From: a virus
Taxonomy: Duplodnaviria > Heunggongvirae > Uroviricota > Caudoviricetes
Virus record (IMG/VR): IMGVR_UViG_2693429772_000010
DNA: 5,343 nt
Reading direction: 5' to 3' (one strand)
Notes under the pieces: generated by a model
The model's input: only the letters and a program-made list of their open reading frames with translations
What the model was told of the DNA's origin: nothing
Databases searched by the model: none
Shown here: one piece after another, positions 1 to 5,343 of the stretch
How positions within the stretch are numbered: position 1 is the stretch's first letter
Layout of the letters: the number at the start of each line of letters is the position of its first letter
Made by a program: the position numbers and the translations under genes

Positions 1-2
1 CG

Positions 3-3000
3 GATAAGGTGTGGACCTATAACCGCAGTAATGTGGTGATGCCGGATGATGGCGCGCCGTTCCGCTACAGCTTCAGCGCCCTGAAAGACCGCCATAATGC
101 CGTTGAGGTGAACTGGATTGACCCGGATAACGGCTGGGAGACGGCGACAGAGCTTGTGGAGGATACGCAGGCCATTGCCCGTTACGGTCGTAACGTCACG
201 AAGATGGATGCTTTTGGCTGTACCAGCCGGGGGCAGGCACACCGCGCCGGGCTGTGGCTGATTAAAACAGAACTGCTGGAAACGCAGACCGTGGACTTCA
301 GCGTGGGCGCAGAAGGGCTTCGCCATGTGCCGGGCGATGTCATTGAAATCTGTGATGATGACTATGCGGGTATCAGCATCGGCGGGCGCGTGCTGGCGGT
401 AAACAGCCAGACCCGGACGCTGACGCTCGACCGTGAAATCACGCTGCCATCCTCCGGTACCATGCTGATAAGCCTGGTTGACGGAAGTGGCAATCCGGTC
501 AGCGTGGAGGTTCAGTCCGTCACCGACGGCGTGAAGGTGAAAGTGAGCCGTGTTCCTGACGGCGTTGCTGAATACAGCGTGTGGGGGCTGAAGCTGCCGA
601 CGTTGCGCCAGCGCCTGTTCCGCTGTGTGAGTATCCGTGAGAACGATGACGGCACGTATGCCATCACTGCCGTGCAGCATGTACCGGAAAAAGAAGCCAT
701 CGTGGATAACGGGGCGCACTTTGACGGCGACCAGAGCGGCACGGTGAATGGTGTCACGCCGCCAGCGGTGCAGCACCTGACTGCCGAAGTCACCGCAGAC
801 AGCGGGGAATATCAGGTGCTGGCGCGCTGGGACACGCCGAAGGTGGTGAAGGGGGTGAGCTTTATGCTTCGCCTGACCGTGGCAGCGGATGACGGCAGTG
901 AGCGGCTGGTCAGCACGGCCCGGACGACGGAAACCACATACCGCTTCACGCAACTGGCGCTGGGACGGTACACGCTGACAGTCCGGGCGGTAAATGCCTG
1001 GGGACAGCAGGGCGATCCGGCGTCGGTATCGTTCCGGATTGCCGCACCGGCAGCGCCGTCGCGGATTGAGCTGACGCCGGGCTATTTTCAGATAACTGCC
1101 ACGCCGCATCTTGCGGTTTATGATCCGACGGTACAGTTTGAGTTCTGGTTCTCGGAAAAACGGATTGCGGATATCAGGCAGGTTGAAACCAGCGCGCGTT
1201 ATCTTGGTACGGCACTGTACTGGATAGCCGCCAGTATCAATATCAAACCGGGCCATGATTATTATTTTTACGTTCGCAGTGTGAACACCGTTGGCAAATC
1301 GGCATTCGTGGAGGCTGTCGGTCAGCCGAGTGATGATGCATCAGGCTATCTGGATTTTTTCAAAGGCGAGATAGGGAAAACCCATCTGGCTCAGGAGCTG
1401 TGGACGCAGATTGATAACGGTCAGCTTGCGCCTGACCTGACTGAAATCAGGACGTCCATAACGGATGTCAGCAATGAAATAACACAGACCGTCAATAAGA
1501 AACTGGAAGACCAGAGTGCAGCGATCCAGCAGATACAGAAGGTTCAGGTTAGGACCTATAACCGCAGTAATGTGGTGATGCCGGATGATGGCGCGCCGTT
1601 CCGCTACAGCTTCAGCGCCCTGAAAGACCGCCATAATGCCGTTGAGGTGAACTGGATTGACCCGGATAACGGCTGGGAGACGGCGACAGAGCTTGTGGAG
1701 GATACGCAGGCCATTGTCCGTTACGGTCGTAACGTCACGAAGATGGATGCCTTTGGCTGTACCAGCCGGGGGCAGGCACACCGCGCCGGGCTGTGGCTGA
1801 TTAAAACGGAACTGCTGGAGACGCAGACCGTGGATTTCAGCGTGGGTGCTGAAGGGCTTCGTCATGTACCGGGCGATGTCATTGAAATCTGCGATGATGA
1901 CTATGCCGGTATCCGCACCGGCGGGCGCGTGCTGGCGGTGAACAGCCAGACCCGGACGCTGACGCTCGACCGTGAAATCACGCTGCCATCCTCCGGCACC
2001 ACGCTGATAAGCCTGGTTGACGGGCAGGGGAATCCGGTCAGCGTGGAGGTCCAGTCCGTCACCGACGGCGTGAAGGTAAAAGTGAGCCGTGTTCCTGACG
2101 GTGTTGCTGAATACAGCGTGTGGGGGCTGAAGCTGCCGACGCTGCACCAGCGATTGTTCCGCTGCGTGAGTATCCGTGAGAACGACGACGGCACGTATGC
2201 CATCACCGCCGTGCAGCATGTGCCGGAAAAAGAAGCCATCGTGGATAACGGGGCGCACTTTGACGGCGACCAGAGCGGCACGGTGAATGGTGTCACGCCG
2301 CCAGCGGTGCAGCACCTGACTGCCGAAGTCACCGCAGACAGCGGGGAATATCAGGTGCTGGCGCGCTGGGACACGCCGAAGGTGGTGAAGGGCGTGAGCT
2401 TCCTGCTCCGTCTGACCGTAACAGCGGATGACGGCAGTGAGCGGCTGGTCAGCACGGCCCGGACGACGGAAACCACTTACCGCTTCACACAACTGGCGCT
2501 GGGGAACTACAGGCTGACAGTCCGGGCAGTAAATGCGTGGGGGCAGCAGGGCGATCCGGCGTCGGTATCGTTCCGGATTGCCGCACCGGCAGCGCCGTCG
2601 CGGATTGAGCTGACGCCGGGCTATTTTCAGATAACCGCCACGCCGCATCTTGCGGTTTATGACCCGACGGTACAGTTTGAGTTCTGGTTCTCGGAAAAAC
2701 GGATTGCGGATATCAGGCAGGTTGAAACCAGCGCGCGTTATCTTGGTACGGCACTGTACTGGATAGCCGCCAGTATCAATATCAAACCGGGCCATGATTA
2801 TTATTTTTACGTTCGCAGTGTGAACACCGTTGGCAAATCGGCATTCGTGGAGGCTGTCGGTCAGCCGAGTGATGATGCATCAGGCTATCTGGATTTTTTC
2901 AAAGGCGAGATAGGGAAAACCCATCTGGCTCAGGAGCTGTGGACGCAGATTGATAACGGTCAGCTTGCGCCTGACCTGACTGAAATCAGGACGTCCATAA

Positions 3001-3527
3001 CGGATGTCAGCAATGAAATAACACAGACCGTCAATAAGAAACTGGAAGACCAGAGTGCAGCGATCCAGCAGATACAGAAGGTTCAGGTTGATACAAATAA
3101 TAACCTGAACAGCATGTGGGCAGTGAAGCTGCAGCAGATGCAGGACGGACGCCTTTATATCGCGGGTATCGGTGCCGGTATTGAGAACACCCCTGACGGC
3201 ATGCAGAGTCAGGTGCTGCTGGCAGCAGACAGGATTGCGATGATTAATCCTGCGAATGGCAACACAAAGCCGATGTTTGTTGGTCAGGGCGATCAGATAT
3301 TCATGAATGAAGTGTTCCTGAAACGCCTGACGGCCCCCACCATTACCAGCGGCGGTAATCCTCCGGCATTTTCCCTGACATCAGACGGGAGACTGACGGC
3401 GAAAAATGCGGATATCAGTGGATGGAGGACACGCAGGCCATTGCCCGTTACGGTCGTAACGTCACGAAGATGGATGCCTTTGGCTGTACCAGCCGGGGGC
3501 AGGCACACCGCGCAGGGCTGTGGCTGA
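3..3527 (+). CDS. J: Phage tail-tip host-specificity protein, lambda gpJ-like; 5'-partial. Contains an in-frame 513-codon internal tandem duplication, then a C-terminal module (variant 1) cut off after '...TAKNADISG', then 35 out-of-frame codons before the stop.
   Basis: Frame-0 ORF is open from the window edge (codons GAT AAG at 3-8 precede the track's GTG at 9), so the true start lies upstream. The translation has the motifs I recall from lambda J's central and C-terminal regions (e.g. '[21 protein letters not shown]', '[18 protein letters not shown]', FN3-like '[32 protein letters not shown]'). The tail '[34 protein letters not shown]' is the J central region read out of frame. Homology is from memory, not a database search. 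Confidence 0.8.
12..1550 (+). repeat. Direct repeat copy 1 of the J central region (1539-bp unit)
   Basis: Positions 13-1550 align base-for-base without indels to 1552-3089 (offset 1539), e.g. 'ggacctataaccgcagtaatgtggtgatgccggatgatgg' at 13 and 1552. Positions 157-1400 also align to 3423-4666 (offset 3266). Confidence 0.9.
1551..3089 (+). repeat. Direct repeat copy 2 of the J central region (tandem to copy 1; the most divergent copy)
   Basis: Same length as copy 1 (1539 bp, 513 codons), so the duplication is in-frame. By eye there are a few dozen scattered substitutions against copy 1, giving protein changes A>V, IS>RT, M>T, S>Q, R>H, M>L, A>T, R>N and T>R, all within roughly the first 330 codons of the unit; the rest of the unit carries only a few synonymous changes. 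Confidence 0.9.
3114..3421 (+). repeat. C-terminal module variant 1 (truncated), paralogous to 4757..5064
   Basis: '[103 protein letters not shown]' aligns over its full length, without gaps, to the variant-2 stretch '[103 protein letters not shown]'. Both segments are 308 nt and both end in 'aaaaatgcggatatcagtgg'. Confidence 0.8.
3416..3430 (+). other. Rearrangement junction: variant-1 C-terminal module fused out of frame to the J central region
   Basis: '...gcggatatcagtgg|at|ggaggacacgcaggcc...': the left side matches the end of the C-terminal module (5051-5064), the right side matches copy-1 158-171 ('ggaggatacgcaggcc'). The register differs by 2 nt from an in-frame fusion, with 'gg'/'tgg' microhomology at the breakpoint. 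Confidence 0.75.
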
Positions 3528-5343
3528 TTAAAACAGAACTGCTGGAAACGCAGACCGTGGACTTCAGCGTGGGCGCAGAAGGGCTTCGCCATGTGCCGGG
3601 CGATGTCATTGAAATCTGTGATGATGACTATGCCGGTATCAGCACCGGCGGGCGCGTGCTGGCGGTAAACAGCCAGACCCGGACGCTGACGCTCGACCGT
3701 GAAATCACGCTGCCATCCTCCGGTACCATGCTGATAAGCCTGGTTGACGGAAGTGGCAATCCGGTCAGCGTGGAGGTTCAGTCCGTCACCGACGGCGTGA
3801 AGGTGAAAGTGAGCCGTGTTCCTGACGGCGTTGCTGAATACAGCGTGTGGGGGCTGAAGCTGCCGACGTTGCGCCAGCGCCTGTTCCGCTGTGTGAGTAT
3901 CCGTGAGAACGATGACGGCACGTATGCCATCACTGCCGTGCAGCATGTACCGGAAAAAGAAGCCATCGTGGATAACGGGGCGCACTTTGACGGCGACCAG
4001 AGCGGCACGGTGAATGGTGTCACGCCGCCAGCGGTGCAGCACCTGACTGCCGAAGTCACCGCAGACAGCGGGGAATATCAGGTGCTGGCGCGCTGGGACA
4101 CGCCGAAGGTGGTGAAGGGGGTGAGCTTTATGCTTCGCCTGACCGTGGCAGCGGATGACGGCAGTGAGCGGCTGGTCAGCACGGCCCGGACGACGGAAAC
4201 CACATACCGCTTCACGCAACTGGCGCTGGGACGGTACACGCTGACAGTCCGGGCGGTAAATGCCTGGGGACAGCAGGGCGATCCGGCGTCGGTATCGTTC
4301 AGGATTGCCGCACCGGTAGCACCGTCGCGGATTGAGCTGACGCCGGGCTATTTTCAGATAACTGCCACGCCGCATCTTGCGGTTTATGATCCGACGGTAC
4401 AGTTTGAGTTCTGGTTCTCGGAAACGCGGATTACCGATATCAGGCAGGTTGAAACCACAGCCCGCTACCTTGGCGCGGGGCTGTACTGGATAGCCGCCAG
4501 TATCAATATCAAACCGGGCCATGATTATTACTTTTATATCCGCAGTGTGAACACCGTTGGCAAATCGGCATTCGTGGAGGCCGTCGGTCGGGCGAGCGAT
4601 GATGCGGAAGGTTACCTGGATTTTTTCAAAGGCAAGATAACCGAATCCCATCTCGGTAAAGAGCTGCTGGAAAAAGTTGATCTGACGGAGGATAACGCCA
4701 GCAGACTGGATGAGTTTTCGAAAGAGTGGAAGGACGCTAACGATAAATGGAATGCGATGTGGGGCGTCAAAATTGAGCAGACCAAAGACGGCAAACATTA
4801 TGTCGCGGGTATTGGCCTCAGCATGGAGGACACGGAGGAAGGCAAGCTGAGCCAGTTTCTGGTTGCCGCCAATCGTATCGCGTTTATTGACCCGGCAAAC
4901 GGGAATGAAACGCCGATGTTTGTGGCGCAGGGCAACCAGATATTCATGAACGACGTGTTCCTGAAGCGCCTGACAGCCCCCGCCATTACCAGCGGTGGCA
5001 GTCCTCCGGTATTTTCCCTGACATCAGACGGAAAGCTGACCGCTAAAAATGCGGATATCAGTGGTAGTGTGAATGCGAACTCAGGAACGCTCAACAATGT
5101 CACGATTAACCAGAACTGTACGATTAAGGGCATGCTGGAGGCGACCCAGGTCAGAGGGGATTTCGTTAAAGCTGTATCAAAAGCCTTCCCGAAAAAAGTC
5201 GGTACGTGGGGTAACACGGAAACACCAGACGGTACGGTTACAGTCACCATCAGCGATGATCATAACTTTGACCGCCAGATTATTATTCCGCCCATTATTT
5301 TTAACGGTATAGCGTATGACGATCCGGGGAGCGGAAATAACCC
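3422..5343 (+). CDS. J: J-like host-specificity protein, central FN3-like region plus lambda-like C-terminal receptor-binding region (variant 2); 3'-partial. Either a separately initiated C-terminal J fragment or the downstream half of a J gene disrupted at the 3421/3422 junction.
   Basis: Frame 2 has a stop at 3356-3358 (TAA), a first ATG at 3422-3424, and then no stop to the end of the window (translated by hand: '[37 protein letters not shown]...[185 protein letters not shown]...'). It is absent from the ORF track, presumably because it lacks a stop in the window. No clear Shine-Dalgarno sits upstream of the ATG (only 'agtgg'), so independent translation is uncertain. Confidence 0.6.
3423..4666 (+). 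repeat. Direct repeat copy 3 of the J central region (partial: begins at the equivalent of copy-1 position 157; near-identical to copy 1 up to about 4424, then progressively divergent)
   Basis: Offset of 3266 from copy 1 is maintained without indels (e.g. 'gatgatgacta' at 355 and 3621; 'tggatttttt' at 1351 and 4617). At the sites where copy 1 and copy 2 differ, copy 3 carries the copy-1 state; the exception is the IS(I/T)GG site, where it has an intermediate 'ISTGG'. The antisense track ORFs 512..793 and 3778..4059 are identical in sequence, confirming identity there. Confidence 0.85.
4757..5064 (+). repeat. C-terminal module variant 2 (complete; continues into the distal receptor-binding region through the window end)
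   Basis: Paralogous to 3114..3421 at roughly 80% nucleotide identity by eye. Unlike variant 1 it continues in frame past 'NADISG' into '[22 protein letters not shown]...'. Confidence 0.8.

What the first reader, a model, noticed from the sequence alone, without database searches (positions are those of the whole stretch)
3090..3527. Truncating junction at 3421/3422 ends one J reading frame and creates an ATG opening the next
The variant-1 C-terminal module is cut off right after '...TAKNADISG' and joined, 2 nt out of register, to the J central region at the equivalent of copy-1 position 158. The upstream ORF therefore reads 35 nonsense codons and stops at 3527, so its product lacks the distal receptor-binding tip. 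The junction dinucleotide completes an ATG (3422-3424) that is the first start codon after the frame-2 stop at 3356, opening a J frame at least 640 codons long that overlaps the upstream ORF by 106 nt. This could be a split or pseudogenised J, a two-gene arrangement, or a misjoin; the lack of an obvious RBS argues against efficient independent translation.
Basis: seen in the sequence. Interest (0 to 1): 0.7.

Follow-up and report, generated by a model that had tools for sequence, protein, structure and literature searches.

The report
Assembly misjoin inside prophage J genes
The "junction" is almost certainly a place where assembly software stitched together pieces of different copies of a prophage tail-tip gene (lambda J), so the truncated protein and the new ATG are artefacts rather than biology.

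Summary
The sequence features are as described. The J-like ORF 9-3527 leaves the J frame after "...TAKNADISG", reads 34 nonsense codons and stops. ATG 3422-3424 opens a 640-codon J frame. This join is one of two in the window (1551 and 3422). Together they chain three partial J alleles head to tail. Each piece is colinear with ordinary J genes at 98-99% identity, right up to the join. Neither join occurs in 5,426 complete E. coli genomes, in the phage or plasmid collections, or in three large contig collections. At both joins a single base matches neither flank, and it is "A" both times. The A of the "new ATG" is that base; the native codon there is GTG (Val). Seven similarly scrambled J contigs, mostly Shigella sonnei drafts, have backward J-to-J jumps of the same kind. 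There the odd base is a literal N (11 cases) or the pieces merge over 9-10 nt. One such contig breaks at exactly the same "...GATATCAGTGG" position. ORF2 starts in the middle of a folded domain and has no ribosome-binding site. Best explanation: a scaffolding or gap-filling misjoin in a multi-copy prophage gene. It is not a real feature; interest is low.

The parts
1..1550 (+). J piece 1. It corresponds to nt 1094-2643 of a canonical 3498-nt J gene (Phage-tail_3, Ig_J, Ig_J_second domains). It is a patchwork of the copy-3 allele (up to about site 1004) and the copy-2 allele (from about site 1159).
1551..1551 (+). Orphan base A at join 1. The native next base of the left flank is G and the native previous base of the right flank is T.
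1552..3421 (+). J piece 2. It corresponds to canonical J nt 1106-2975 and ends at ...GATATCAGTGG, inside the Phage_Tail_Tip domain. It is 98.4-98.5% identical and colinear with ordinary J genes.
3422..3422 (+). Orphan base A at join 2 (the finding). The native next base of the left flank is C or T, and the native previous base of the right flank is G. It supplies the A of the 'new' ATG.
3423..5343 (+). J piece 3. It corresponds to canonical J nt 1250 to about 3254 and carries a different distal module. It runs into the C-terminal receptor-binding domain (Ig_GpJ_C) at the window end.
9..3527 (+). Composite ORF of 1172 aa that reads through join 1 in frame and is frameshifted at join 2.
3423..3527 (+). 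The 34 out-of-frame codons plus stop. This is ordinary J sequence read in the wrong frame; the same nonsense peptide can be read at 118-261 and 1657-1800.
3422..3424 (+). The apparent start codon ATG, made of the orphan A plus the TG of the native GTG (Val) codon. No Shine-Dalgarno motif lies upstream.

Best explanation
The window is a false scaffold. The source genome very probably carries several lambdoid prophages, each with its own allele of the tail-tip gene J. A short-read assembler breaks in such multi-copy genes. A greedy scaffolder or gap-filler then placed three partial J walks one after another, each stepping back in J coordinates. No true overlap was found at either join, so a one-base placeholder was left. 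That placeholder appears here as A and appears as N in sister assemblies. The frameshift, the 34-codon nonsense tail, the RBD-less J and the ATG at 3422 follow from this concatenation. Shown: the anatomy, the uniqueness of the joins, the untemplated base, and the N-joins in sister contigs. Inferred: that the window's two A's stand for such placeholders, and which software made the joins.
For: 1. Each piece is colinear with normal J genes at 98-99% identity, and the matches stop exactly at the joins.
2. Neither join is spanned in 5,426 complete E. coli genomes. Join 2 is also not spanned in the phage or plasmid collections.
3. The exact join-2 string, and a version allowing any 0-2 bases at the join, are absent from viral, genome and metagenome contigs. 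The wildcard does match a literal N.
4. No protein with this junction turned up in two searches of the 5.8-billion-cluster collection.
5. Both joins carry exactly one base that matches neither flank. It is A both times, while the native neighbours are G/T and C-or-T/G.
6. In seven other scrambled-J contigs, backward J-to-J jumps sit on a literal single N at 11 positions: L001 569, 1496, 3209; L002 12982, 15204; L003 4116, 5700; L004 7843; L005 2925 (these five are S. sonnei); L007 4185 (E. coli). L004 has one more on an 11-N run (12350-12360). Two others are 9-10-nt overlap merges.
7. L001's join at 3209 has the same left breakpoint (...GATATCAGTGG|) as join 2, in a different allele. That position is a C/T allelic difference, which is where majority-vote extension would stall according to the GapFiller description (PMC3446322).
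8. GapFiller closes gaps on overlaps of at least 10 nt. The published high-throughput pipeline using SSPACE and GapFiller calls them greedy tools that 'can lead to false joins', and it was run on 299 S. sonnei isolates (PMC5320598).
9. L001 1459-1495 is a reverse-complement turn-around next to an N, which shows extension errors in such contigs.
10. Differences between the copies are mainly synonymous (37:10 and 51:25). Copy 1 has only 3 private sites. So the pieces are functional alleles or re-walks of them, not copies that decayed in place.
11. ORF2 begins inside a domain and has no SD motif.
Against: The window contains no N; the odd bases are real letters (A). I could not retrieve the source record or its reads, so the N-to-A equivalence is an inference. 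Two A's out of two has a chance of only 1/16, and the A at 3422 also extends an 11-nt match to 4824-4834. Only one of the four breakpoint flanks lies at a site seen to be polymorphic in my small allele sample. One other contig (L008, a 904-kb E. coli contig) has an N-free, in-frame internal J duplication, so N-free J duplications do occur in public assemblies. That single-N gaps are residues of SSPACE/GapFiller runs is my own recollection; I found no text confirming it.
Confidence: 0.85

Rival explanations
1. This is a real genomic rearrangement. Illegitimate (microhomology or no-homology) recombination among co-resident lambdoid prophage J genes produced a head-to-tail array of partial J alleles. 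That left a pseudogenised J with a frameshift at 3422.
For: The sequence has no N and every piece keeps an intact reading frame. An N-free in-frame internal J duplication exists in a large E. coli contig (L008). Prophage J genes are known to be mosaic, from my own knowledge.
Against: It needs two independent non-homologous joins, each with a 1-nt filler, linking three different alleles in the same orientation. Between prophages at different chromosomal sites this would imply large rearrangements. Neither join is spanned in 5,426 complete E. coli genomes, and join 2 is absent from every other collection searched. No junction-bearing protein was found. The same architecture in sister contigs sits on N gaps.
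Confidence: 0.08
2. The joins exist in DNA molecules but arose in vitro. Chimeric library fragments or PCR template switching between J alleles were then faithfully assembled.
For: The joins have little or no homology and carry a 1-nt filler. The pieces come from several alleles of one gene, which is typical of template-switch chimeras (inference only).
Against: A contig needs consistent coverage over two different chimeric junctions plus three 1.5-1.9-kb pieces, which is unlikely for rare chimeras. It does not explain why sister assemblies show N at the corresponding places.
Confidence: 0.05
3. This is a functional two-gene or recoded arrangement. A truncated J lacking the receptor-binding tip is made from ORF1, and a second protein starts at ATG 3422 or is made by ribosomal frameshifting at the junction.
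For: There is a long open frame of 640 codons after the ATG and a 106-nt overlap, as in some coupled genes.
Against: There is no Shine-Dalgarno motif and no X XXY YYZ slippery heptamer at 3400-3430 (direct reading). The ATG depends on the untemplated base. ORF2 starts at profile position 90 of 164 in the Phage-tail_3 domain, so it would lack the N-terminal two-fifths of J and part of a fold. The long open frame is simply the normal J frame. The arrangement is not conserved anywhere.
Confidence: 0.02

Closest known systems
Scaffolding and gap-closure misjoins in multi-copy genes of short-read draft assemblies (for example Velvet + SSPACE + GapFiller pipelines; PMC5320598, PMC3446322)
   Same: Partial copies of one repeated gene are placed head to tail, each stepping back in gene coordinates. 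A one-base non-templated position sits at each join. The joins are unique to one assembly. One breakpoint is shared with a sister contig at an allelic C/T site. Sister S. sonnei and E. coli contigs show the same layout with a literal N or with 9-10-nt merges.
   Different: In the window the placeholder position reads A, not N. The assembler used for the window's source is unknown.
Bacteriophage lambda gpJ (tail tip attachment / host specificity protein J) of lambdoid prophages
   Same: Every piece has the J domain order Phage-tail_3, Ig_J, Ig_J_second, Phage_Tail_Tip, Ig_GpJ_C, and is 98-99% identical in DNA to annotated gpJ genes.
   Different: A normal J is one colinear gene of about 1,159-1,165 codons. 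Here three overlapping parts of it are concatenated, and the N-terminal roughly 365 codons are absent from the window.
Natural mosaicism of J alleles through homologous recombination between lambdoid prophages
   Same: Copy 1 is a patchwork of the alleles seen in copies 3 and 2, and the distal modules differ between copies.
   Different: Homologous exchange keeps gene length and register. It cannot produce backward jumps of about 1.5 kb or a shift of 2 nt.

Membership tests
lambda gpJ tail tip attachment protein | Pfam domain series Phage-tail_3 / Ig_J / Ig_J_second / Phage_Tail_Tip / Ig_GpJ_C | tested here: met
   all are found. In ORF1 the first three occur twice. ORF2 has one of each, and its Phage-tail_3 match starts at profile position 90 of 164.
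lambda gpJ tail tip attachment protein | Single colinear gene of about 3.5 kb | tested here: not met
   the window maps to canonical J nt 1096-2643, then 1106-2975, then 1250-3254; genome matches collapse onto about 2.16 kb.
lambda gpJ tail tip attachment protein | Position between tail assembly gene I and lom | not testable with these tools
   The window holds only J sequence. Sister contigs L002, L003, L004 and L007 show I, then J, then lom.
scaffold / gap-closure misjoin | Join not reproduced in independent assemblies | tested here: met
   5,426 complete E. coli genomes, both joins; phages, plasmids; join 2; viral, genome and metagenome contigs; proteins.
scaffold / gap-closure misjoin | Both flanks are ordinary sequence right up to the join | tested here: met
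   100% matches to query 1-50 and 52-100, with none spanning..
scaffold / gap-closure misjoin | Placeholder (N) or untemplated base at the join | tested here: inconclusive
   Sister contigs have a literal single N at 11 joins. The window has an untemplated A at both joins. That the A stands for N is inferred, not shown.
scaffold / gap-closure misjoin | No reads span the join | not testable with these tools
   The source record and its reads are not available.
programmed ribosomal frameshift / translationally coupled gene pair | Slippery heptamer or Shine-Dalgarno motif upstream of the second frame, with conservation | tested here: not met
   the upstream sequence CGGCGAAAAATGCGGATATCAGTGG has no SD core and no X XXY YYZ motif. 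No other sequence carries the junction.
tail-fibre diversification systems (invertible shufflon-type cassettes, DGR) | Inverted repeats flanking cassettes, or a template repeat plus reverse transcriptase | tested here: not met
   0 inverted repeats of at least 20 nt. All repeats are direct J copies. No non-J coding sequence lies in the window.

The most novel reading that the evidence does not exclude
The array is real. Illegitimate recombination among co-resident lambdoid prophages built a head-to-tail stack of partial J alleles carrying alternative distal modules. Such a stack could serve as a reservoir for later homologous exchange of receptor-binding regions.
Probability: 0.06. Interest if true: 0.4.

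Novelty: not a real feature. Interest (0 to 1): 0.05.

Why it matters
Taken at face value, the junction would suggest an RBD-less J protein and a new internal J gene, and so a change in prophage host range. The evidence indicates an assembly artefact instead, so it has little biological importance. The practical value is as a caution. J genes of lambdoid prophages are a recurrent site of false tandem duplications in draft Shigella and E. coli assemblies. Public databases hold oversized or frameshifted "host specificity proteins" of 1,200-1,900 aa that derive from such joins. These entries can contaminate tail-fibre or receptor-binding-protein datasets used for host-range prediction.

Tried and rejected
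1. I tried to find the source record. I ran protein searches with ORF1 and ORF2. I scanned three collections for the junction string, with and without a wildcard. Nothing was found, so the origin remains unknown.

2. I asked whether all three pieces come from one complete genome. The best hits for the three pieces are different strains at 98-99% identity and none reaches 100%, so no parental genome was identified.

3. I tested whether every breakpoint lies at an allelic difference. This held only for the left side of join 2, which is C/T.

4. I looked for published text stating that SSPACE or GapFiller leave single-N gaps and did not find any. That point rests on my recollection plus the Ns seen directly in sister contigs.

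5. I rejected simple de Bruijn repeat collapse as the cause, because the flanks share no k-mer at the joins.

6. I rejected frameshifting, gene coupling, shufflon and DGR readings; see the membership tests.

7. The window shares 82% of its 25-mers with five S. sonnei loci. This shows a similar allele pool but does not prove the species.

Full report
**Observation**

The window contains only sequence of the lambda-type tail-tip gene J, on the + strand. The repeat finder and a register comparison show three partial copies at offsets of 1539 and 3266 nt. I mapped the window onto a canonical 3,498-nt J gene taken from E. coli D217-5 (L006). It reads J 1096-2643 (window 3-1550), then J 1106-2975 (1552-3421), then J 1250 to about 3254 (3423-5343). 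There are therefore two backward jumps, at 1550/1552 and at 3421/3423.

ORF 9..3527 follows the J frame to ...TAKNADISG, reads 34 out-of-frame codons and stops at 3525-3527. In the other frame the last stop is TAA at 3356 and the first start is ATG 3422-3424. That frame is open for 640 codons to the window end, and the overlap is 106 nt.

**Are the joins found anywhere else?**

- 100-nt probes centred on each join were searched against 5,426 complete E. coli genomes. Thousands of perfect or near-perfect matches were found to one half or the other, but none spanned the join.
- The same was true for join 2 in the phage and plasmid collections. The left half matched at 100% to query 1-50 and the right half at 100% to query 52-100.
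- The exact 27-mer of join 2 is absent from the viral, genome and metagenome contig collections. The join-1 30-mer is absent from the viral contigs.
- A pattern allowing any 0-2 bases at join 2 is also absent from all three collections. That wildcard does match a literal N in a local test.
- Each of the three pieces on its own is colinear over its full length with many annotated gpJ genes at 98-99% identity.

Only the joins are unusual.

**Anatomy of the joins**

At each join exactly one base belongs to neither flank: 1551 and 3422. Both are A. In every natural J copy I hold, the neighbouring bases are different:

- After ...AGGTTCAGGTT the next base is G.
- Before GGACCTATAACC the previous base is T.
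- After ...GATATCAGTGG the next base is C or T.
- Before TGGAGGA(C/T)ACG the previous base is G.

So the A of the "new ATG" is this untemplated base. With the native G, the codon is the ordinary Val codon of J (...LVEDTQ...). A, G or T at that position would each give a formal bacterial start codon, so creating a start there has no significance.

**Sister cases**

A protein search with the composite ORF returned a set of oversized or scrambled J proteins as its best hits. Most come from Shigella sonnei draft contigs: P0001 (1720 aa), P0003 (1512 aa), P0004 (1195 aa), P0006 (913 aa) and P0027/P0093. P0006 also breaks right after ...TAKNADISG and then reads the same kind of out-of-frame J nonsense.

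I fetched their contigs and mapped them to canonical J.

- Backward J-to-J jumps sit on a literal single N at 11 positions: L001 569, 1496, 3209; L002 12982, 15204; L003 4116, 5700; L004 7843; L005 2925; and L007 (E. coli) 4185. L004 has one more on an 11-N run.
- Two further jumps are merges over 9-10 shared nucleotides (L004 about 5324-5332; L005 about 1470-1479).
- The L001 join reads ...GATATCAGTGG N GCTGGGAG.... Its left breakpoint is identical to that of the window's join 2, although it lies in a different distal allele.
- L001 also contains a 37-nt reverse-complement turn-around of J sequence abutting an N.

These are scaffold gaps and greedy-extension products, not sequenced junctions.

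**How this most likely arises**

The GapFiller paper describes base-by-base extension from both gap edges. Extension uses majority voting at "allelic differences", and a gap is closed only when the two extensions overlap by at least 10 nt and fit the estimated gap size (PMC3446322). The description of the high-throughput Velvet + SSPACE + GapFiller pipeline calls both tools greedy. It says they "can lead to false joins", notes that joins are written as N, and lists 299 S. sonnei isolates among its assemblies (PMC5320598).

A genome with several lambdoid prophages has several J alleles that share long identical stretches. Extension from the two sides of a gap can then walk past each other along different alleles without ever being merged. 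This leaves duplicated gene segments on either side of a residual gap. The 9-10-nt merges in L004 and L005 fit the 10-nt closing rule. The recurrent stop at ...CAGTGG|(C/T) fits a stall at an allelic difference.

Two points are not proven here. First, that single-N gaps are the usual residue of such runs is my own recollection; I found no text for it. Second, that the window's two A's stand for such placeholders is an inference. It rests on their position, on their being untemplated, and on both being the same letter (chance 1/16).

**Other features consistent with this reading**

- Copy 1 has only three sites that differ from both other copies. Otherwise it follows the copy-3 allele up to about site 1004 and the copy-2 allele from about site 1159. 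It is 100% identical to copy 2 over its last 400 nt or so.
- Differences between copies are mostly synonymous, at 37:10 and 51:25 codons. The pieces therefore derive from functional alleles under selection, not from copies that diverged after a local duplication.
- ORF2 starts at profile position 90 of 164 in the Phage-tail_3 domain. The second piece starts at about position 37 of the same domain. The re-entries therefore cut through folds, not domain boundaries.
- There is no Shine-Dalgarno core and no slippery heptamer near 3422 (direct reading).
- There are no inverted repeats of 20 nt or more in the window.
- The many "partial" J proteins on 2-6-kb contigs in the second protein search show that J routinely breaks short-read assemblies.

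**What argues the other way**

- The window has no N, and I could not recover its source record or reads.
- One E. coli contig of 904 kb (L008) carries an N-free, in-frame 613-nt duplication within J. Its copies are identical and the join is an A-run. Such structures therefore exist in public assemblies without N. It may itself be an artefact, or it may be real.
- The A at 3422 also extends an 11-nt identity with 4824-4834 to 12 nt. I regard this as coincidence, with a 1 in 4 chance given the 11-mer, but it is unexplained.
- A real origin would need two independent non-homologous joins, each with a 1-nt filler, chaining three alleles from different prophages in the same orientation. It would also have to be private to one genome. 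I rate this at under 10%.

**Comparison with known things, and verdict**

Each piece is an ordinary member of the lambda gpJ family. The window as a whole fails the family's defining colinearity. What it matches is the known class of scaffolding and gap-closure misjoins in repeated genes. The truncated J, the nonsense tail and the ATG-opened frame are by-products of that misjoin. Verdict: not a real biological feature (confidence about 0.85). Interest is very low. The one practical point is that public databases hold a population of artefactual 1,200-1,900-aa "host specificity proteins".

Noticed in passing
window 1550-1552: A second join of the same kind: ...GTTCAGGTT | A | GGACCTATAACC. It jumps back from J nt 2643 to 1106 and also has an untemplated A. 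It happens to be in frame, which produces a 513-codon apparent internal duplication in ORF 9-3527.
   Followed up: yes
window 13-1550 compared with 1552-3089 and 3423-4666: Copy 1 is a patchwork. It follows the copy-3 allele at nearly all informative sites up to about 1004 and the copy-2 allele from about 1159, and it is 100% identical to copy 2 over its last 400 nt or so. Only 3 sites are private (212, 368, 379). It is either a third natural mosaic allele or a re-walk of the other two.
   Followed up: partly
window 3422-3433 and 4823-4834: The 12-mer ATGGAGGACACG, which includes the orphan A, occurs twice, both times in the ORF2 frame (MEDT). About 0.01 occurrences are expected by chance. It is probably a coincidence layered on an 11-nt similarity, but I did not explain it.
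   Followed up: partly
L001 1459-1495 (S. sonnei CXFR01000279.1): A 37-nt stretch is the reverse complement of the J sequence that should follow, and it abuts an N at 1496. It is translated in P0006 as the antisense peptide IFPAVCSDFCDQV. This is a strand turn-around artefact.
   Followed up: partly
L008 4898-6125 (E. coli JBNDCC010000003.1, 904-kb contig): An in-frame 613-nt tandem duplication within J has identical copies, no N, and the join GATTGAAAAAAGGG with an A-run not templated by either flank. It could be real, or a gap rendered as A's.
   Followed up: partly
L009 5224-8220 (scaffold KN849217.1, labelled Bacillus thuringiensis Sbt003): A true phage lambda tail region sits in a Bacillus assembly, which points to contamination. 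It is broken by 20-N gaps. Its J gene contains identical 750-nt units repeated in tandem, encoding a 1,882-aa 'host specificity protein' (P0002).
   Followed up: partly
L002 15204-16801, L004 7843-9187, L005 2925-3469: The extra J C-terminal fragments annotated as separate genes between J and lom in S. sonnei contigs are each preceded by a single N. They are also likely scaffold artefacts, not spare receptor-binding cassettes.
   Followed up: partly
protein hits: Hundreds of 'host specificity protein J, partial' entries lie on 2-6-kb contigs. Several are chimeric annotations, for example P0031, a 1,416-aa 'terminase' with J domains. J is a frequent contig-break and mis-annotation site in draft E. 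coli assemblies.
   Followed up: no
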